Positions 2,219-62,656 of a DNA stretch of 64,000 nucleotides are shown piece after piece; within the stretch, counting starts at the first letter, position 1, and each line of letters opens with the position of its first letter. This DNA comes from Octopus vulgaris (Eukaryota). The stretch is from NCBI GenBank assembly GCA_951406725.2, contig OX597829.1, positions 56,978,001-57,042,000 of the forward strand, read 5' to 3'. Made by a program: the position numbers and the translations under genes. Under the pieces are notes generated by a model, which was not told where the DNA came from, made no database searches, and worked only from the letters and a program-made list of their open reading frames with translations.

Positions 2219-2867
2219 GAATGATAATGACCTGGCAGTACTTGAGGAAGGCTTTTCTAGTTAGAGATGAACTGCACAAGTATGGAAGTAGCTGCAGGTG
2301 AACCTGTTTGAGATGTATACAGAACAATAAACCCATCCTATATACATCTGTTCAGTGTATAAGTCCCCATCAATCCTACATTTAAGAGTTGACATGCATA
2401 TTTGATCATGGCATCAGTGCTAGAGAGAGGGAGGGAGGGAGAGAGAGAGAGCGAGGGGGGTGTGTGAATAGTAGGAGATGGATAAGGAATGTTGATACTG
2501 AATTGCCAATAGAGAATATACAACCTCTACTGTTATAGTAAATGGTTTGATAATAACAAACCCTATACTATACAGTACAGGTTGTATATTCACAGTAGAA
2601 ACCAGGCAGAGTGAAGACAAGTCACCTTCCTTTGTCAAAAGCAGGTTAATACTATATTTGGTTGATAGACAGATCTGTCTGACACACACAACTGTCCAAT
2701 GCAAACCCACAAACGGACAATGGTCGGACACTGAACAGATGTATATAGGATGGGTTTATTGTTCTGTATACATCTCAAACAGGTTCACCTGCAGCTACTT
2801 CCATACTTGTGGAGTTCATTTCTAACTAGAAAAGCCTTCCTGAAGTACTGCCAGGTCATTATCATTC
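2219..2867. repeat. Inverted repeat of about 140 bp (2219-2358 / 2728-2867) around a 370-bp spacer
   Basis: The arms are near-identical reverse complements with only a few mismatches; no recognisable TSD or family terminus. Confidence 0.85.
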
Positions 2868-3005: not shown

Positions 3006-3789
3006 CAAGGTGTCACAAAAAATCACTGATGGGTTTCAATTTTTAATAATTTCCTAAACTTTACAAATAAATGGATAAAATTTTGAAACCATATAAAGGA
3101 CATAATGGAAATTAATATGCACAAATCAAATTTTGCAACACCACTACATCACATACACACATGTGCTCTTTCCAAAACTTGCACCATAACACCCTCAAGA
3201 GTTTCAGACCCCACTTCTCTGATTTCTCTATTGATATTCTCCTTCAGTTGCACCAGGGTCTCTGGTTTCTTGACGTAAACCCTCTCTTTAAGGAATCCAT
3301 GATTGAGACCTCTTTTATGCCCAGCCATACAAAGTAGACCTCACACATGGTTCCAGCAAGATGGGGTAACTGCTCTCATACCGAAAGAGAAACAATGCAG
3401 TTGCTAGGGAAGTGCTCTAGAGAGAGAGAATAATCTCCTGCTATGGCAATGTCAACTGGCCTGAAAGAGAGGGTCTATGTCAACAAACCTGAAAGAGAGG
3501 GTTTACGTCAAGAAACCTGAAAGACAGAGTTTATGTCAAGAAACTAGAGACCCTGGTGCAACTGAAGGAGAAATCAGAGAAGTGGGGTCTGAAACTCTTG
3601 AGGGTGTTATGGTGCAAGGTTTGGAAAGAGCGCATGTGTGTATGTGATGTAGTGGTGTTGCAAAATTTGATTTGTGCATATTAATTTCCATTATGTTCTT
3701 GATATTGTATCAAAATTTCATGCATTTATTTGTAAAGTTAAGGAAGTTATTGAAAATTGAAACCCATCAGTGACTTTTGGGAAACGCTG
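3006..3789. mobile_element. Tc1/mariner-superfamily foldback element made of two inverted copies of a transposase 3' end
   Basis: TA TSD at 3004-3005 and 3790-3791; arms of about 290 bp; the plus strand reads WFQQDGVTA...IISCYGNVNWP then LKERVYVKKP-ETLVQLKE...EVGSETLEGVMVQ. Confidence 0.85.
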
Positions 3790-13443: not shown

Positions 13444-14521
13444 TCATCATCTTCATTGTTTAATGTCTCCTTTCCATGCTGGCATGGGTTGGACAGTTTG
13501 ACTAAAGACTGGTGAGTCAGAGGCTGCACCAGGCTCAAAATGATCTGGCAAAGTTTCTACAGCTGGATGCCCTTCCTAACGTCAACCACTCCCAGAGTGT
13601 AGTGGGTGCTTTTTAAGTGCCACCGGCACAAGGGCCAGTCAGTCGGTTCTGGCAACGACCATGCTCGAATGTTGTTTTCTGCGTGCCACCAGCATATGAG
13701 CCAATCTGTGGCCCTGGCAACAGTCATGCTTGGATGTGCTTTTAACATTCCACTGGCATGAGTGCTAATCAGGCGGTACTGTCATCGGACGTGCCAGCAA
13801 TTTTGGTTTGTTTATACTTGCCTTAATAGGTCTTCGCAAGCAAAGTTCATTGTCCAATGAATGAAGGATACTCATAAGTGACCCAGTTACACACTACATT
13901 CGAATGTGCTTTTAACGTTCCACTGGCACTGGTGCCAATCAAGTGGTACTGTCATCGGTCGCGTCAGCAATTTTGATTTTGATTTCACTTGCCTCAACAG
14001 GTCTTCACAAGTAAGGTTTATTGTCCAATGTATGAGGGGTATTCATAAATGGGCTAGTTACACCCACTGGCATAGGCCATGGGCTATGGTCTCACTTGGC
14101 TTGTCGGGTTTTCTCAAGCACAGCATATCTTCAAAGGTCCAGGTCACTAGTCATTGTCTCGGTAAGGCCCAATGTTTGAAGGTCGTGCTTCACCACCTCA
14201 TCCCAGGTTTTCCTGGGTCTACCTCTTCTACAAGTTCCCTCAACTGCTAGGATGTGATACTTTTTCACACAACTGTCCTCATTCATTCGCAACACATGAC
14301 CATACCAGCACAGTTGTCTCTCTTGCACACCACATCTGATGCTTCTTAGGTCCAACTTTTCTCTCAGGGCGCTTACACTTTGTTGTGTATGCACACTGAC
14401 ATTAAACATCCAGTAGAGCATACTGGCTTCATTCCTTGCAAGCTTACACATGTCCTTAGCAGTCATGGCCCATGTTTCACTGCCATGTAGCATGGCTGTT
14501 TGCACACATGCAAACTGCCAT
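13444..14521 (-). mobile_element. 5'-truncated RTE-clade LINE
   Basis: ORF 14131..14559 MLHGSETWAMT...LCWYGHVLRM...RGRPRKTWDEVV; 3' UTR subrepeats and a (GAT)-type tail. Confidence 0.9.
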
Positions 14522-14559
14522 GCTACCTTATATATATATATGTATATATATATACACAC

Positions 14560-38649: not shown

Positions 38650-39249
38650 CTAGGATCTCATAAAACCTTCTACAAATGGAGAAGACCTTTAATGCAGCCT
38701 CGTATTAAAAACGAAAAAGAAAAAAAATCATTGTTCCGTCTAAAAAGAGGAATAATACATCTATTATAATCTTAAATACACTTATGTCTAAATAAAAGAG
38801 GGGATGGTTTCAGTTTGTGTTTAGGGGTTTGCTTCGGCAGCGATAATCTGGGATTGGACAAGAATAAGAACGTTTTCAGATTTCTAAAAATATTCGTGGT
38901 TTCACTGAACTAAAACATAAAGCGAAGACGGCACACCACCCGGAGTACGTTTTGAAAAGGGACAACTAGTACACTACAAATGTATAACACCACCAGCACT
39001 ACAATGACATCAAGAAAAAAAAAAAAATAAGACCAAAAAAAAAACAAAACAAAAAAACAATTACAGCAACAGCAAGAATAACAAAAAACAAACAAAAAGG
39101 AACAAGATATTGGAATATTGTCGGTAACCCAATTTCGCACGACTAGCGTCAAAATGGGGGGGGGGGGGAGTGTTTTTCGTATAATTAAGGATGAATTAGC
39201 TCGTTAGAAAATCTCCTTTAAGAGATGGAAGTTGTAACTATACTGAGAA

Positions 39250-39421
39250 ATAATGTTTATCGCCACTTCAACATGGCTGTTCCGTAGGACAGCTGGAGCG
39301 AACTACTGCTATCTTTAGCAGACGGGTATCCACCACTGAGGATGAGCACAAATAGCTCGAAACCGGACGGTCTGGTTGTCTTGTCGTCGCTGGAAGATGG
39401 CGGGGTTCGTTCCCCTGCTTG

Positions 39422-39481
<60 letters not shown>

Positions 39482-39594
39482 TCGGGTACAGATTGCATCA
39501 ATCACCAGCTGGAGGAGTTGCCCGCCTGGGGTTAAAAATTGTAATAACGTTGGTTCCTATGAAACTGCCATGTTGAAGTGGCGATAAATATTAT
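39250..39594. mobile_element. Inverted-repeat-bounded non-autonomous element carrying the hammerhead and a central (TA)n; Penelope-like or MITE-like
   Basis: 39250-39289 ataatgtttatcgccacttcaacatggctgttccgtagga matches the reverse complement of 39555-39594 with about 4 mismatches in 40. Confidence 0.7.
39332..39376 (+). ncRNA. Type I hammerhead ribozyme motif
   Basis: acca (stem I) CTGAGGA t GAGC-acaaata-GCTC (stem II) GAAA ccg-ga-cgg (stem III) TC tggt (stem I'). All core nucleotides are present, with GUC cleavage after 39372 and one extra U before stem II. Confidence 0.8.
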
Positions 39595-40615
39595 GGATGA
39601 ATTAATTTCTCTTTATCAAGAAAACTTTGTTGCTTGCAGAAACCCCTTATCTTGGCTTCTTGAGTCCACCACAAAGAAACATTTTTTTGTTGTTCTTTTG
39701 TTAAGAGACAGTTCTTTAATTCTGTCTTGTTCCTTGTTTTAAACCACCACAGCCAAAAATAATGTTAAAATAATATTTAAACTTGACCAAATAATCAGAT
39801 TAAAAAAAAAGGGGGAACTCAATAATCTTATCCAAAACAGATAGACAAGACAAAAATATAAATAAAAACTAAAAAAAGAAGGGGTGAAGAATACCATTTA
39901 TTCCCTTCTGTTTTAATAGAATATACCATTAAAATTATTCGGAACTGATTAATGTAACATGCTGTTCATATATGCTACATACCACAATAGTGAAAACATT
40001 CATTAAAATTTTGCTTTGCTTAATCACGAACAACATTTTATTAACTTATCATTATTATTGTTGTTGTTGTTGTTATCATCATCATCGTCATACAAACCTA
40101 TTTTTGACTGAATACAGTCATAGCTCAGTTTGTGTTGTGTGTTTAAAAAGAACCATTCTTAATGCTTGTTTTGAATGCTCTTCACTTCCTTCCACGTGTG
40201 TAGGTATGTGTGTCTGTTCGTTTACACACATGTACGCATGCATGCATCAGTTTGTGTGGAAACTAGGAGGGGATCTAGATTAAGCTGTTTCACATTATGT
40301 GCGTGTAGATGCGAGAGAAAGAGTTTGTGTGTGTGTGTGTGTGTGCGTGCGCGCGTACGTGCAGCGTGGTTATGTGCAAGCGCGTGCAGCAGGGAGAGAA
40401 AGTGGGTGGATGGACGGGTGGGGGCGACATTCTGTGTTTTTTCTTTTCTTTTTTTTTTATTCAATCCCGGTCTAGAATGGTTTGTTCGGGAGAAAACTGG
40501 GTAAGCTCAGTGTGAGGTAAATGTTCAGTTTTGAACCGTTGCAAGCTAATAACCCGAGTTAGGGTATGGGTAGGAGGGGTAACGTGGCCAGCAGGATTTC
40601 CTGAGGGATATGGTC

Positions 40616-40679
<64 letters not shown>

Positions 40680-40932
40680 GCAGGCACTGTCTATTATGTG
40701 TTGTGGTCGATGGTGGTATAAAGTGCATCATAAAGATGATGAAAAACATTGAATGCATTGAACAAATGAAGAATAATTTCTATGAATTCATATTCAACAG
40801 CCAAACATTGTGGACAGACTTTACACTTTATTTTTTAATTATTATCATTATTAGTCACAGGAAGAGGGATATTGCTTACAATATTTGCAAGTCCTCATTC
40901 TAGGCTGGTGCCAAGATTTATGACCGACATAT

Positions 40933-41635
40933 GGATCTTTTCGGTTTGAAAGGCAGTTTTGTAAAAAATAATTTATATGTAACTAAAAAGTTTTAAACTT
41001 CGTATACTGGTAGAATGTGTTTATAAAACATCTTTTTCTCTTGGCTTTATTGAGAAAATTCTGTAAATTGAAAGATATTTGGTCTTTAATTTCTTGCATT
41101 TCGGCAATTTCAACCAATCAATGACCGTCTATTGGGGTGAAAACAATATCTGCCGAAGTCTGTCAACAGCAATTTTTCTGCGGTGTCATATGAAAATGTC
41201 CTTAAGAAACAGATTGGATTTATTTACATTTCTGAAGAAAAAAAAGATACCCTTCCCCCACCCCTAACCCTAACCAACCCCAAAACAGATTGAAATGCAA
41301 TAGATCGATACTAGGGTCATAATTATGGGTGGACACTAAAGAGTAAATAAACCCAATCTGTTTCTTAGGGACATTTTCATATGACACCGCAAAAAATTGC
41401 TGTTGACAGACTTCGGCAGATATTGTTTTCATCTCAATAGACGGTCATTGATTGGTTGAAATTGCCGAAATGCAAGAAATTAAAGACCAAATATCTTACA
41501 AACTACAGAATTTTCTCAATAAAGCCAAGAGAAAAAGATGTTTTATAAACACATTCTACCAGTATACGAAGTTTAATATTTTTTTAGTTTCATATGAATT
41601 ATTTTAAAAAACTGCCTTTCAAACCGAAAAGATCC
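40933..41635. mobile_element. Merlin-type foldback MITE with about 295-bp inverted arms and central CCCTAA repeats
   Basis: Termini GGATCTTTTCGGTTTG / CAAACCGAAAAGATCC; arms 40933-41228 and 41342-41635 are highly similar; partial TSD ccgacatat / ccgacggat. Confidence 0.85.
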
Positions 41636-49638: not shown

Positions 49639-50357
49639 CATGTGTGTGTGTGTGTGGGTGTTCGACTAAAAACCCTCTAAGGGGGTGCTTCAGCATGGCC
49701 GCAGTCAAATTGCTGAAACAAGTAAAAGATAAAGGATGTCATGAGGCTACGATTCCTTTAGCTTAATATGTACCGTGTCTATGAAACCGATGTGTGATTC
49801 CTGAGCTTTCTCGAATCAATAAACTATGAGAAACAACAATAGAACAGCATCTTATCCTGTGAATACGTTGTGAACGCTGGAAATAAACATCAGTCCCGTA
49901 AAATTTTGTGATTCAGGAGCACAAGAGAGAAAAAAAGGGGTCTTGCTCATAGAGAGCTACATAAATTTTTCTTTGTAAATTAGCTATGTGAGGTGAGACA
50001 TGTGTGTGTGTGTGTGGGTGTTCGACTAAAAACCCTCTAAGGGGGTGCTTCAGCATGGCCGCAGTCAAATTGCTGAAACAAGTAAAAGATAAAGGATGTC
50101 ATGAGGCTACGATTCCTTTAGTTTAATATGTACCGTGTCTATGAAACCGATGTGTGATTCCTGAGCTTTCTCGAATCAATAAACTATCAGAAACAACAAT
50201 AGAACAGCATCTTATCCTGTGAATACGTTGTGAACGCTGGAAATAAACATCAGTCCCGTAAAATTTTGTGATTCAGGAGCACAAGAGAGAAAAAAAGGGG
50301 TCTTGCTCATAGAGAGCTACATAAATTTTTCTTTGTAAATTAGCTATGTGAGGTGAG
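49639..50357 (+). repeat. Near-perfect 360-bp tandem duplication
   Basis: 49639-49997 versus 49999-50357, period exactly 360; two substitutions seen (gctta/gttta, tatga/tatca). Confidence 0.95.
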
Positions 50358-50939: not shown

Positions 50940-51357
50940 GGATCTTTTCCGTTTGAACGGCAGTTTTTTTCTAGCGGTGCCATATGAAATTGTCACCCAT
51001 AATTATGACCCTAGTATCGATCTATTGCATTTCAATCTGTTTTAGGGTTAGGGTTAGGGGTGGAGGCAAGGGTATCTTTTTTTCTTCACAAATGTAAATA
51101 AACCCAATCTGTTTCTTAAACGAGGGACATTTTCATACGGCACAGAATGTTTTTTACCTCAATTAGACGTCAGTGATTGGTTGAAATTGCAGAAATTGAA
51201 GAAAAAAAACAAATATCTTACAGACTATAGAATTTCCTCAATAAAGCCAAGAGAAAAATATGTTTTATAAACACATTCTCCCAGTATACGAAGTTTAAAA
51301 GTGTTTAGTTACGTGGAAATTATTTTTAAAAAACTGCCGTTCAAACCGAAAAGATCC
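50940..51357. mobile_element. Related Merlin-type MITE (one long arm, one short arm, (TTAGGG)3 inside)
   Basis: Termini GGATCTTTTCCGTTTGAACGGCAG / CTGCCGTTCAAACCGAAAAGATCC; internal sequence aligns with 40933-41635. Confidence 0.85.
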
Positions 51358-51591
51358 AAAGAGACCATAAAGCGAACTGGTAAAATTCTTTAATTTTATC
51401 AACAGAATTCCCCGATTTTGCCTCGTCCACTGGCATCTACTTGGTTAGTACATGCTAGGGATATGAATGCCACAGAGAAGGCAATTCAGGGGATGATTAA
51501 CATGCAGTTTACCGTCGTCAAAATGTGAAAGTAAATAGCAATGGAGACCAGATTAACAGTGGTATCAAAATTTCATAAAACACGTTAGATA

Positions 51592-51750
51592 TGTGATGGA
51601 TGGGCTTTGTTTTTGTGTCTCGGCAATTCCTATGCTCATGAAGTTGTCAACCATTGACTCAGTTTTGTAGATCCAAATGATGACAACATCCATACACAGG
51701 CTAGAGAAGGGTGATGGATGCTTGCTGAGAAGATACTTAAGCAACAATGA
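51592..51750 (+). pseudogene. Second Merlin transposase relic (C-terminal D..E region)
   Basis: One frame reads CDGWALFLCLGNSYAHEVVNH*LSFVDPNDDNIHTQAREG*WMLAEKILKQQ, matching the IS1595/Merlin D.W..Y...H..VNH...FVDP....HTQ..E..W motif. Confidence 0.75.
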
Positions 51751-52499
51751 TAATTTATTTAACATCAAATATTTTTAGGAGGTGGATCTGGGCCTGGTAA
51801 CATTATAATTTCCTGATTCCAATTGAGTCAGGTATAACAGCGAAAAAAAGAAAAAATATATGACAAGAGTTGTAACTGACTGCCACACCTTATTCAAACG
51901 CCTAATGGAAGGTACAGCAAAATTGGAACATCTTGAATGATTCAGCCAGAAAATATACATATTAGTTTGTCATGCAGTTGGAACTTGATGTGTGCTTGAC
52001 GGAACACTACAACGCGTCAAAGCACTCTACTGAAAAACTCTCGTCTCGGCCGAGATCCGAACTCGACCGTGCCTTTCCTGAAGAATAGTGGGAAAGATTC
52101 CTATTTTTAAAGCTGATGGGGTGGGGGTGGGGGACTCCCGTGAACAAACATAATTACCCGCGCTAGGCTGGTCTGTCACGAGAGGGAGTGGATAGTCCGT
52201 GTAAAACCAGGACTAGATCGATGTACACAGGATTACGTAACCAGGTCAAGTGACCACTTCTAGAAAACACGAATGATTCAATCTCGGGGATATTAAAGCT
52301 AAACGGCCGAATGATAAACATACTTCTGCGACATTTCCATGCGCATGTATGGCGATCGTGAAAAACTATTCATGAATCTCATTTCCTGCATCAATGGCTT
52401 AGGTTTCCCCTTAAATGGGATTGTTTTCATCTTATATAAAACGCGTACGGTGTTCATATTATATTAAATATATGTACGTTCTGTACATTAGTTATATCA

Positions 52500-53300
52500 C
52501 ATATATTGTTTACATGAAACTATGGAATGTTACTGTCGTCACTTTCGTTTTCTACAGCAATTTACTTTAATTTTTTTAGGACCATTTACTTTCACCTTTT
52601 TATGATGGTAAACTGCATGTTAACTTCAGTGGCTTGCATGTCGACGTATGATGGCCACCTCAGTGAGTAATCAATAATCCTACACCACCACTGAGCTGCA
52701 CAAAATGAACCGACAGGAAGCGATGGTCTTTCTTGTTCCTATCCATTCACGTTTCATACATTGGTTGGGTTACATTACATTGTTTACGTGAAATTATCGG
52801 ATTTCAATGTCGTCACTTCCGGTCAATTTACTTTATTTTTTTTTTTTTAACTCTTAAATTACGTGTTAACCGAACTCAGAAATGTTTTGCAACAAGCTAA
52901 AAGGTTTCGATCCATGTTCCTACGATAAATCCCACGAATTTCAAGCTTCTTATCGTAATTTTTCTCCTCATTCAATTTTATGGTTCTTTATCTGTTTGCG
53001 CACTTTATCACGTGATTCGTGGCACACTTCAGACATTTTATTGACTTGTTTGTGTTTATGTAAACGCATTCTGTTCAATATCTGCACATGAGATCGATAT
53101 TCCCACTGATATTTAATATCCCTGTTACATATCAATAAATTACTATTACCATCGTTGTCTCTGGAAAACGTTAAAATAATTAAGAAGTCGATTCAATATT
53201 TGGCCCTTAATATTAACAAAAGTAACTTCTCTTTCGCGTTTGCTGCTCGTTTTGTGTATTTATAACGAAAGACCACTAAAATGATTAGTAACTAGGTAAA
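52500..53300 (+). promoter_or_regulatory. Candidate promoter or first-exon region of a plus-strand gene
   Basis: Unique CpG-containing sequence at the CpG-rich to CpG-poor transition; duplicated TGTTTAC...CGTCACTT module; ETS-like CACTTCCGG; donor-like AG|GTAAAA near 53295. Confidence 0.3.
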
Positions 53301-56160: not shown

Positions 56161-57405
56161 TCGTCGTCATCGTTTAACATCCGATTTCCATGCTGCCATG
56201 GGTTGGACGGTTTGACTGAGGGCTGGTGAGCCAGAAGGTTACACCAGGCTCCAATCCGATCTGGCAATGTTTCTACAGCTGGATGCCCTTCCTTCCTAAC
56301 TCCAATAGTGCAGTAGGTGCTTTTTACGTGCCACCGGCATGGGGGCCAGTCAGGCAGTACTGACATTGGCCATACTTGACTGGTACTTTTTACATGCCAT
56401 TGGCATGGGAGCCTGTCAGGCGGCACTAGCAACAATCATGCTTGAATGGTGCTTTTTACGTGCTACCAGCATGGGAGCCAGTCAGGCAGCACTGGCACTG
56501 ACCATGCTCGAATGGTGCTCTTTACATACCACTGGCACGGGTGCAATTAGACAGTATTGTCATCAGCCACGACGATGACTTCACTTGCCTCAACAGATCT
56601 TCACATGTGCAGTCTATAGCCCAATGATTGAAGGGTACTCTTAAATGGGCTGGTTATGTTGCACTGGCATAGGCCACAGTTAGTCTCACTTAGCTTATCA
56701 GGTCTTCTCAAGCACAGCGCATCTCCAAAGGTCTCGGTCACTTGTCATCACCTCAGTGAGGACCAACGTTTTAAGGTTGTGTTTCACGACCTCATCCCAG
56801 GTCTTCCTGGGTCTACCTCTTCCACTGGTTCCTTCTAATGCTAGGGTGTGGCACTTTTTCATACAGCTCTCTTTATCCATATGCAACACATGACCATACC
56901 AGCGCAGTTGTCTCTCTTGCACACCACATCTGATGCTTCTTAGGTCCAACTTTTCTCTCAAGGTACTTACACTCTGTCAAGTATGCATGCTGACGTTACA
57001 CATCCATTGGATCATACTGGATTCATATCTTGCGAGCTTACGCATGTCCTCAGCAGTCACAGCCCATGTTTCACTGCCATGTAGCATGGCTATTCTTACA
57101 CATGCGTCATACAGTCTGTCTTTTACTCTGAGCGAGAGGCCTTTTGTCGCCAGCAGAGGTAAGAGTTCTCTGAACTTTGCCCAGGCTATTCTTATTTTAG
57201 CAGCTACACTTTCAGAGCAGCCACCCTCGCTACTGACTTGGTCACCTAGGTAACAGAAGCTATCAACTACTTGTAGTTTTTCCCTCTAGAATGTGACAGA
57301 AGCTGTTTTCTGCACATTTTCAGTGTTTATTGCCTGAACATTTGCCACACACAAAAACTATCTTCCTAGTTAGCCTTCCTTTGATATTGCTGCACCTCTT
57401 GTGTG
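56158..57405 (-). mobile_element. 5'-truncated RTE-clade LINE
   Basis: Same family as 61558-62656 (LRWYGHVLHM, GRGRPRKTWDEVV, upstream YLGDQVSSEGGCSESVAAKIRIAWAKFRELLPLL); tail at about 56158. Confidence 0.9.
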
Positions 57406-61557: not shown

Positions 61558-62656
61558 TGTATGATGCGTACATCATACATGTATGATGCGTGTGTACATA
61601 CATACATCATACATGTATGATGCGTGTGTACGAACAGCCATGCTACATGGCAGTGAAACATGGGCCGTGACTGCTGAGGATATGCGTAAGCTCGCTAGAA
61701 ATGAAGCCAGTATGCTCCGATGGATGTGTAATGCCGGTACTCACACTCGGCAGAGTGTAAGTACCTTGAGAGAAAAGCTGGACCTAAGAAGCATCAGTTG
61801 TGGTGTGCAAGAGAGACGTTTGCGCTGGTATGGTCATGTGGCGAGAATGGATGAAGATAGTTGTGTGAAAAAGTGCCACACCCTAGCGGTTGAGGGAACC
61901 TGTGGAAGAGGCAGACCCAGGAAAACCTGGGACGAGGTGGTGAAGCACGACCTTCGAACTTTAGGTCTCACTGAGGAAATGACTAGAGACCGAGACCTCT
62001 GGAAGTGTGCTGTGCGCGAGAAGACCCGGCAGGACAAGTGAGTCCATAACCCATGGCCTTCTACATGGGATGGAGCCGGCCTACGTATGCATACCTTCCC
62101 TTCTTGGGACACAAAACTCTACTTGTGAAGACGTGTTGAGGCAAGTGAGGATCAGAATCGAAATCGATCAATGGAAATTGCGGATGTGCTACCAGTGCCG
62201 GTGGCATGTCAAAACTCTGCTTGTGAAGACCCGTTGAGGCAAGTGAGAATCAGAATCGAAATCGATCAATGGAAATCGATCAATGGAAATTGCAGATGTG
62301 TTACCAGTGCCGGTGGCATGTAAGAGAACTTTCCGTTTCGCGACCGTTGCCAGCACCGCCCCGTTTCGTGTCCGTTGCCAGCCTCGCCTGGCCCTCGTGC
62401 CGGTGGCACATAAAAAGCACCATCCGTTCGTGGCCGTTTGCCAGCTCTGTCTGGCACCAGTGCGGGTGGCACGTAAAAAGCACCCACTACACTCACGGAG
62501 TGGTTGGCGTTAGGAAGGGCATCCAGCCGTAGAAACACTGCCAGATTTGACTGGGCCTGATGAAGCCTTCTGGCTTCACAGACCCCAGTAGAACCGTCCA
62601 ACCCATGCTAGCATGGAAAACGGACGCTAAACGATGATGATGATGATGATGATGAT
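61558..62656 (+). mobile_element. 5'-truncated RTE-clade LINE, young copy
   Basis: Open C-terminal ORF YDACVRTAMLHGSETWAVT...RRLRWYGHVARM...GRGRPRKTW...RDRDLW; subrepeated 3' UTR; (GAT)n tail; CpGs retained. Confidence 0.92.

What the first reader, a model, noticed from the sequence alone, without database searches (positions are those of the whole stretch)
39250..39594. Hammerhead packaged in a 345-bp inverted-repeat cassette with a (TA)n core
Seen: 40-bp inverted termini enclose the ribozyme, a (TA)n tract and a short unique arm, with no ORF. Known retrozymes use direct repeats, whereas this looks MITE-like. Inference: it is either a Penelope insertion with an inverted terminal segment, or a ribozyme-carrying non-autonomous family that may be undescribed.
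Basis: partly seen in the sequence, partly recalled or inferred. Interest (0 to 1): 0.75.

Follow-up and report, generated by a model that had tools for sequence, protein, structure and literature searches.

The report
Truncated Penelope-type insertion carrying a hammerhead
This is most likely the short, protein-less leftover of a Penelope-type retrotransposon insertion in an octopus-like genome, with a real hammerhead ribozyme motif and inverted ends of the kind these elements are known to leave, so it is probably ordinary rather than a new kind of element.

Summary
In detail: 40-bp inverted repeats (36/40) enclose a complete type I hammerhead motif and a (TA)24 tract. An exact 10-bp direct repeat abuts the right inverted repeat and recurs 51 bp outside the left one (about 0.1% of control positions), so the insert reads as 39199-39594: target duplication, 51-bp one-sided extension, 40-bp inverted copy, hammerhead-bearing body, target duplication. 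That asymmetry is the published anatomy of Penelope-like element (PLE) insertions (inverted 5'-truncated copy, one-sided tail, 8-10 bp duplication), not of a MITE. The hammerhead has the published PLE hallmarks (extra base after A9, G10.1-C11.1, self-complementary helix III) and is predicted to need a partner copy. A neighbouring LINE fragment points to Octopus, where PLEs are reported at 6.8% of the genome. Unusual details: the extension is longer than the usual 30-40 bp, and helix I is prolonged by a 29-bp wobble-rich stem. No sister copy, parent ORF or empty site could be obtained, because no eukaryote genome was searchable; the family-level question stays open. Verdict: new member of a known kind, low-to-moderate interest.

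The parts
39189..39198 (+). left copy of candidate target-site duplication, 10 bp exact (extends to 14/15 at 39184-39198)
   Evidence: (family D7)
39199..39249 (-). 51-bp one-sided extension outside the left inverted repeat; inferred PLE 'tail' in inverted orientation
   Evidence: position between the candidate duplication and the inverted repeat; no independent sequence link to the body
39250..39289 (-). left inverted repeat: inverted 40-nt copy of the 3' end
   Evidence: 36 of 40
39295..39325 (+). 5' arm of the long lower stem that prolongs helix I
   Evidence: 29 predicted pairs with 39384-39413, 6 of them G.U; hairpin z -4.7 on + against -1.7 on -
39332..39376 (+). type I hammerhead motif; predicted cleavage after C39372; extra U at position 9.1; self-complementary helix III 39362-39371
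   Evidence: weak Rfam HH9 match
39384..39413 (+). 3' arm of the long lower stem
39426..39473 (.). (TA)24 microsatellite, followed by a short (CA) run
39474..39554 (+). 81-nt unique arm, no significant structure or match in the window
   Evidence: z +1.3
39555..39594 (+). right inverted repeat = inferred 3' end of the sense copy; holds a small predicted hairpin near 39565-39583
39595..39604 (+). right copy of candidate target-site duplication, starting at the first base after the inverted repeat

Best explanation
A 396-bp, 5'-truncated insertion made by Penelope-like element (PLE) machinery. The template was the terminal region (pseudo-LTR) of a hammerhead-bearing PLE or of a non-autonomous derivative, sense = + strand. 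Inferred mechanism: the element's RT-endonuclease nicked AT-rich DNA on both strands 10 nt apart; the right-hand nick primed reverse transcription from an inner start site and copied 305 nt (39594 back to 39290, through the TA tract and the ribozyme); the left-hand nick primed from an outer start site 51 nt further 3' on the RNA and copied only 91 nt; the two cDNAs were joined head to head and gap filling left the 10-bp duplication. The 'terminal inverted repeats' are then only the 40 nt that both cDNAs share, and the 51-nt surplus is the PLE tail. In the parent the hammerhead would cut tandem transcripts as a dimer (or with protein help), and the long helix I would hold the cut ends together; this lone copy has no partner and is probably catalytically silent and immobile. 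Shown here: the geometry, the ribozyme motif, the folding predictions. Inferred: that the 10-mer is a target duplication, that the extension is a tail, the two-primer mechanism, the parent element, any cleavage.
For: (1) Exact 10-bp repeat begins at the first base after the right inverted repeat and recurs 51 bp outside the left one; control: 42 of 60,902 positions one-sided, 84 of 60,902 either side; 14/15 version 18 of 2,967, 17 of these inside a 360-bp tandem duplication; 0 of 5 other inverted-repeat pairs in the window show it. (2) Published PLE inserts have an inverted 5'-truncated copy, a 30-40 bp tail on one end (PMC8557442) and 8-10 bp duplications with a 31-bp tail on one inverted copy (PMC3846280). 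(3) An active PLE protein cleaves and extends both strands and starts reverse transcription at two adjacent sites whose spacing is the tail (PMC11167929). (4) The motif shows the features listed for metazoan PLE hammerheads: type I, a base between 9 and 10.1, G10.1-C11.1, palindromic helix III (PMC4209133; here); helix III folds at -0.9 kcal/mol alone and -13.3 as a self-duplex; as in the anole PLE an ATG sits at the start of helix II. (5) Named relatives of a LINE fragment in the window are Octopus proteins (2 named of 111 hits); PLEs are reported at 6.83% of the O. vulgaris genome in 190 families (PMC13282606 supplement).
Against: Only one copy was available: no sister copy in the window, none through predicted peptides. 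No RT or GIY-YIG match nearby (0 of 150 ORFs above a Pfam cut-off; 0 of 139), though Pfam also missed the evident LINE fragment, so this negative is weak either way. The extension is 51 nt, longer than the 30-40 nt reported, and nothing independent ties it to the element. The geometry of the duplication test was chosen after seeing the repeat, so its rates are optimistic. The two arms differ at 4 of 40 sites while the 10-mer and the catalytic core are intact, which needs different source copies or luck. No open PLE-like reading frame runs through the 3' end and extension. 25 of 256 possible loops give as strong a self-duplex, so the palindrome signal is modest. An internal (TA)n and a 29-bp extension of helix I are not among the PLE features I read.
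Confidence: 0.7

Rival explanations
1. A non-autonomous family that is amplified as a fixed cassette, inverted ends included (an 'inverted-repeat retrozyme'): the whole hairpin-forming RNA is re-transcribed and re-inserted by PLE machinery, so many loci share the same 40-bp arms and junction.
For: The whole 345-nt unit folds into one very stable structure (-153 kcal/mol, z -13). The arms have diverged (4 of 40, two as G.U on the + strand) while the core is intact, as expected if the inversion is older than this insertion. Size is in the range of metazoan retrozyme monomers (about 220-390 nt, PMC7229834). PLE terminal repeats can mobilise unrelated sequence in trans (PMC3846280).
Against: Much of the stability comes from the inverted repeat and TA tract by construction. 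The body without the left arm folds well on its own (z -5.6). One-off inversions are routine for PLEs. No second copy seen.
Confidence: 0.12
2. A true MITE (Tc1/mariner- or PIF-type, 2-bp TA/AT duplication) that carries, or was hit by, a PLE ribozyme fragment; the 10-bp repeat is chance.
For: 40-bp near-perfect arms; 2-bp TA or AT duplications can be read at trims of 2, 3 or 5 nt; the window holds several other foldback elements; interior is 48-54% GC against 35-42% in the arms.
Against: The 2-bp reading follows automatically from the self-complementary ends. The 10-bp repeat abutting one arm has a control rate near 0.1%. No second duplication was seen around the inner segment among the repeats of 12 nt or more. 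No paper on hammerhead-bearing MITEs turned up (listings, one paper read in passages).
Confidence: 0.12
3. A non-autonomous DIRS-type (tyrosine recombinase) retroelement, whose inverted terminal repeats are asymmetric.
For: Imperfect inverted ends with a one-sided extension; DIRS have imperfect inverted terminal repeats (PMC8969392).
Against: DIRS lack target duplications and carry an internal complementary region; the extension matches the body on neither strand (scores 46 and 42 against null medians 43 and 44), and a 10-bp repeat bounds the unit.
Confidence: 0.03
4. The hammerhead motif is a chance match or a dead relic inside an unrelated foldback.
For: Rfam score far below gathering; active fold has about 1% or less probability in the monomer (helix I pairs 0.009-0.016, helix III 0.001).
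Against: 0 of 20,000 shuffles of the unit match the descriptor; core fully canonical with PLE-specific extras; low monomer activity is the published norm for PLE hammerheads.
Confidence: 0.03

Closest known systems
5'-truncated insertions of endonuclease-containing PLEs (Penelope/Poseidon, Neptune, Hydra), e.g. Adineta vaga Pen2/Pen2a, Drosophila virilis Penelope, Anolis PAc
   Same: Type I hammerhead with extra base at 9.1 and palindromic helix III; inverted 5'-truncated copy giving inverted ends; extension on one end only; about 10-bp duplication; AT-rich target; ATG at start of helix II as in PAc.
   Different: No ORF left; inverted copy only 40 nt (181-212 bp in the A. vaga examples read); extension 51 nt against 30-40; helix I prolonged by a 29-bp stem, whereas metazoan PLE motifs are described with a 4-5 bp helix I and poorly defined loop; internal (TA)24. 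Clade not assignable without the ORF.
Metazoan non-LTR retrozymes (coral, mussel, axolotl; Xenopus families derived from PLE pLTRs)
   Same: ORF-less, 300-400 nt, type I hammerhead, highly structured RNA, likely PLE-dependent; solo monomers are reported.
   Different: Defined by head-to-tail tandem repeats with two or more hammerheads; here one unit, one hammerhead, inverted ends.
Plant LTR retrozymes
   Same: Non-coding, hammerhead-bearing, bounded by a target duplication.
   Different: They have direct LTRs, type III hammerheads, 4-bp TSD, PBS and PPT; direct LTRs and a type III motif are absent here, PBS/PPT not tested.
MITEs (non-autonomous TIR DNA transposons)
   Same: Short, ORF-less, inverted ends.
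   Different: The long direct repeat is offset by 51 bp on one side instead of hugging both arms; carries an RNA-level catalytic motif.
Naiad PLEs of Octopus (Naiad_Obim, Naiad_Ovul)
   Same: Same host group; tandem/inverted insertions with tails; (TA)n association.
   Different: Naiads lack canonical hammerheads and insert into (TA)n; here the hammerhead is complete and the TA tract is internal.

Membership tests
Autonomous EN+ PLE | ORF with RT and GIY-YIG endonuclease | tested here: not met
   No RT/GIY-YIG Pfam match in 150 ORFs at 30.9-48.9 kb or 139 others; this copy is not an autonomous element
Truncated PLE-type insertion | Type I hammerhead with base between 9 and 10.1, G10.1-C11.1, short palindromic helix III | tested here: met
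   against PMC4209133
Truncated PLE-type insertion | Inverted 5'-truncated copy of the 3' end adjacent to the 5' end | tested here: met
   39250-39289 is the reverse complement of 39555-39594, upstream of the + strand ribozyme
Truncated PLE-type insertion | 30-40 bp tail on one end only | tested here: inconclusive
   51-bp one-sided extension by position; longer than reported and not independently tied to the element
Truncated PLE-type insertion | Short target-site duplication (8-10 bp in A. vaga) | tested here: inconclusive
   Exact 10-mer at the predicted places, control rate 0.07-0.14%; no empty site available
Truncated PLE-type insertion | Sequence identity to the pLTR of a coding PLE; variable 5' ends among copies | not testable with these tools
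   No eukaryote genome or repeat library searchable
Non-LTR retrozyme | Head-to-tail tandem units each with a type I hammerhead | tested here: not met
   One hammerhead in 64 kb, no tandem unit at this locus
Non-LTR retrozyme | Expression as self-cleaved linear and circular monomers | not testable with these tools
   No RNA reads
LTR retrozyme | Direct LTRs each with a type III hammerhead | tested here: not met
   Single type I motif, inverted ends
MITE | Terminal inverted repeats, no coding capacity | tested here: met
MITE | Superfamily-typical TSD directly against both TIRs | tested here: inconclusive
   Only 2-bp TA/AT, uninformative; none of 3-12 bp at trims 0-7
MITE | Many copies of uniform length with fixed ends; related transposase | not testable with these tools
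   No genome
DIRS-type element | Internal complementary region matching the termini; no TSD | tested here: not met
   Extension does not match the body; candidate 10-bp duplication present

The most novel reading that the evidence does not exclude
A cephalopod family of non-autonomous, hammerhead-bearing elements that spreads as a fixed inverted-repeat cassette (an inverted-repeat retrozyme), in which a once-accidental PLE inversion has become the heritable end structure and the long wobble-rich helix I with the terminal duplex makes a viroid-like rod or circle; in the boldest form it is moved by a DNA transposase while keeping a functional ribozyme.
Probability: 0.13. Interest if true: 0.68.

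Novelty: new member of a known kind. Interest (0 to 1): 0.27.

Why it matters
If the best reading holds, the value is modest: it is a compact genomic footprint of the two-primer PLE insertion that has been seen in vitro (both strands extended, two start sites), with a longer-than-usual tail, and a warning that such stubs look like MITEs to repeat annotators. Sister copies would map the reverse-transcription start sites of an octopus PLE family for free. If instead the cassette is fixed across copies, it would be a third architecture of retrozyme (inverted ends, beside direct LTRs and tandem arrays). If transcribed, the 40-bp and 29-bp duplexes would be candidate RNA-editing substrates in a lineage known for heavy A-to-I editing (recalled; not tested).

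Tried and rejected
Sister copies in the window: BLAST and Smith-Waterman of six parts against 12 shuffles each gave nothing clearly above the null; a look-alike near 52685-52737 scored 87, below all 12 null maxima (90-121), and lacks the catalytic boxes. Sister copies through predicted peptides: residues 1-46 of the + frame, 3 candidates, 0 at E<=0.01; residues 60-99, 0 candidates; the 55-aa minus frame over ribozyme and left arm against 1.84 billion proteins, 1 hit (P0112, E 3.4e-4, 36% identity, 1313 aa; too divergent for a sister copy; its identity stayed unchecked). GTDB genomes: arm motif 0 matches; core motif 1 match, L001, in GC-rich coding-like DNA with no helix I in my fold, rejected as chance. 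Phage collection: no match. Short motifs in paper texts: 0 papers; in two supplements: 0. tRNA-derived SINE: ARAGORN found 0 tRNA in the window; a T-arm-like stretch near 39400-39416 is part of the long stem. My first descriptor null demanded a 4-bp helix III, which the real motif fails, and was redone. G.U bias as proof of RNA-level selection: 5-6 G.U and 0 A.C in the lower stem, and a strand energy gap (18.9 kcal/mol) larger than in any of 289 control windows, but the five DNA inverted repeats scored (the focal arms and four others) also lean the same way (16 against 6), so this is supportive only. A 9-mer shared by the junction and 39507 is not significant (217 of 2,000). Pairing of the extension with the body: not better than shuffles in the ribozyme's sense (337-468 of 500; best of six tests 25 of 500, in the other orientation). 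Helitron/Helentron-type origin (recalled features: 3' hairpin, no long TSD) considered because of the small hairpin near the right end, set aside because the hairpin is in both arms and a 10-bp repeat bounds the unit. Pfam coverage: 150 of 167 ORFs of 45 aa or more at 30-49 kb, 7 more of them plus 132 of 167 distant ORFs; two sub-threshold matches only.

Full report
Observation. The inverted repeats (39250-39289, 39555-39594; 36 of 40), the (TA)24 tract (39426-39473) and the 81-nt unique arm are as described. A complete type I hammerhead motif lies on the + strand at 39332-39376, with predicted cleavage after C39372. It is the only match in the window to a descriptor asking for 4, 4 and 3 pairs in helices I, II, III; that descriptor gave 5 hits in 150 shuffled windows and 0 of 20,000 shuffles of the unit. 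Rfam does not call it at gathering level and gives only a weak HH9 match (17.9 bits, E 0.26). An 81-codon frame starts inside the core and crosses the TA tract; it has no family or homologue and I treat it as non-coding.

Context. The window is AT-rich, microsatellite-rich DNA with no Pfam domain above cut-off in 289 ORFs tested. A LINE-like fragment at 61565-62041 has 111 relatives, of which the two that carry an organism name are Octopus vulgaris (85% identity over 54% of the query) and O. bimaculoides. I take the host to be an octopus or close kin; the species was not determined. PLEs are reported at 6.83% of the O. vulgaris genome in 190 families, with 30 recently active Penelope families (PMC13282606, part 1 of 3 and supplement rows), and are among the families enriched in coleoids (PMC8967140, passages). 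The giant squid genome paper counts 235 hammerhead-1 matches (PMC6962438, passages).

An exact 10-mer, GGATGAATTA, starts at 39595, the first base after the right inverted repeat, and also lies at 39189-39198, 51 bp outside the left one; it extends to 14 of 15. Sliding the same geometry along the window gave 42 of 60,902 positions (one side) or 84 of 60,902 (either side), in 7 clusters, leaving out the locus itself and a 360-bp tandem duplication; the 14/15 version gave 18 of 2,967, 17 of them in that duplication. None of 5 other inverted-repeat pairs shows such a repeat. The test was framed after seeing the repeat, so the rates are optimistic. No duplication of 3-12 bp touches both arms at trims of 0-7 nt; 2-bp TA/AT can be read but follows from the self-complementary ends. 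The likely insert is therefore 39199-39594 (396 bp) and is asymmetric.

The ribozyme. It has an extra U between A9 and G10.1, a G10.1-C11.1 pair and a self-complementary helix III, three of the traits that Cervera and de la Pena list for metazoan PLE hammerheads (PMC4209133, parts 1-2 of 4); their fourth trait, large families with covariation, needs a genome. Helix III folds at -0.9 kcal/mol alone and -13.3 as a self-duplex with a tandem G.A centre; 25 of 256 loops would do as well, so this is modest support. In the monomer the active fold costs 5.5 kcal/mol (-49.3 against -54.8) and its helix I and III pairs have probabilities of 0.001-0.016. Poor monomer activity, dimer cleavage and protein help are reported for PLE hammerheads (PMC6765202, passages; PMC11167929, parts 1-2 of 4). 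The original dimer paper by Lunse et al. was not held and is known to me only through that review. Helix I continues, past an internal loop, into a 29-pair stem with 6 G.U pairs; the hairpin is far more stable on + than on - (z -4.7 against -1.7; energy gap larger than in 289 of 289 control windows). DNA inverted repeats in this window also lean to G.U on + (16 against 6), so wobble bias alone proves little.

Comparison with known anatomy. Craig et al. describe PLE inserts as often carrying an inverted 5'-truncated copy at the 5' end, giving inverted repeats around the unit, and a 30-40 bp tail often at one end only (PMC8557442, passages). Arkhipova et al. show A. vaga copies with an inverted pLTR, a 31-bp tail on one inverted copy and 8-10 bp duplications (PMC3846280, passages and Discussion). 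D. virilis copies have inverted terminal repeats of variable size and a 34-37 bp repeat (PMC2377424, passages). A curation guide lists inverted pLTRs and short 3' extensions as PLE peculiarities, and no TSD plus an internal complementary region for DIRS (PMC8969392, passages). The purified anole PLE protein cleaves and extends both strands, prefers AT-rich DNA, and starts at two adjacent RNA sites whose spacing is the tail; its ORF begins at helix II, where this motif also has an ATG. Metazoan retrozymes are tandem by definition, leave solo monomers, and derive from PLE pLTRs (bioRxiv 10.64898/2026.07.22.740005, parts 1-3 of 5; PMC7229834, passages).

Most likely mechanism (0.7). Staggered nicks 10 nt apart in AT-rich DNA; one nick primes a 305-nt cDNA from the inner start site, the other a 91-nt cDNA from a site 51 nt further 3'; the two are joined head to head and filled in. 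The inverted repeats are the shared 40 nt, the extension is the tail. The geometry is shown; the steps are inferred from the anole in vitro work, and self-priming on an antisense template is a published alternative for the inversion. The TA tract is most simply part of the source repeat or a local expansion; only 44 of 1,259 intervals of this size in the window hold such a tract, so it may be a family trait, and (TA)n association is reported for several PLE clades including Octopus Naiads. This copy, lacking ORF and partner ribozyme, is probably inert.

What speaks against it and what stays open. There is only one copy. No relative was found in the window, through predicted peptides, in GTDB genomes or in phages; none of these collections is a fair test for an octopus repeat. 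The extension is longer than published tails and shows no independent link to the body. No PLE-like frame runs through the 3' end. The arms differ by 10% while the 10-mer and core are intact. Hence two rivals remain at about 0.12 each: a fixed inverted-repeat cassette moved by PLE machinery, and a MITE holding a ribozyme fragment. DIRS and chance are unlikely.

Novelty. Searches for a hammerhead in a MITE or DNA transposon (listings, PMC6431247 read in passages), for cephalopod hammerhead elements and for the motifs themselves found no description of this family or of such a cassette in the open library; subscription papers, Repbase, Dfam and the O. vulgaris library were out of reach, and the family may well be catalogued there. 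Verdict: new member of a known kind, interest 0.27; the fixed-cassette reading has probability about 0.13 and would deserve about 0.68.

Noticed in passing
window 40932-41635 and 50940-51358: Foldback element with 296-bp arms (95% complementary) 1.3 kb from the finding, with a related copy at about 51 kb; contains short CCCTAA-like runs.
   Followed up: partly
window 2219-2867 and 3018-3778: Two adjacent inverted-repeat units: 140-bp arms at 98% and 276-bp arms at 89% with a 28-bp tandem repeat inside; no boundary-abutting 10-bp repeat.
   Followed up: partly
window 51497-52623: 40-bp inverted repeats (90%) 1.1 kb apart, both ending in TTAA; piggyBac- or Kolobok-type non-autonomous element is a recalled guess.
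   Followed up: no
window 49639-50357: Near-perfect (99%) 360-bp tandem duplication beside a (TA)173 tract; recent duplication or assembly artefact.
   Followed up: no
window 14134-14559 (-), 56581-57113, 61565-62041 (+): 3' fragments of one LINE family, about 80% alike (RTE type is my recalled label); named relatives are Octopus proteins.
   Followed up: partly
window 52685-52737: Stretch faintly resembling the hammerhead segment (11-nt exact match) but without catalytic boxes and within the shuffle null.
   Followed up: yes
window 39392-39402 and both 40-bp arms: AAGATGGCG and GCCATGTT motifs resemble the YY1 binding consensus (recalled, not tested); could belong to an internal promoter.
   Followed up: no
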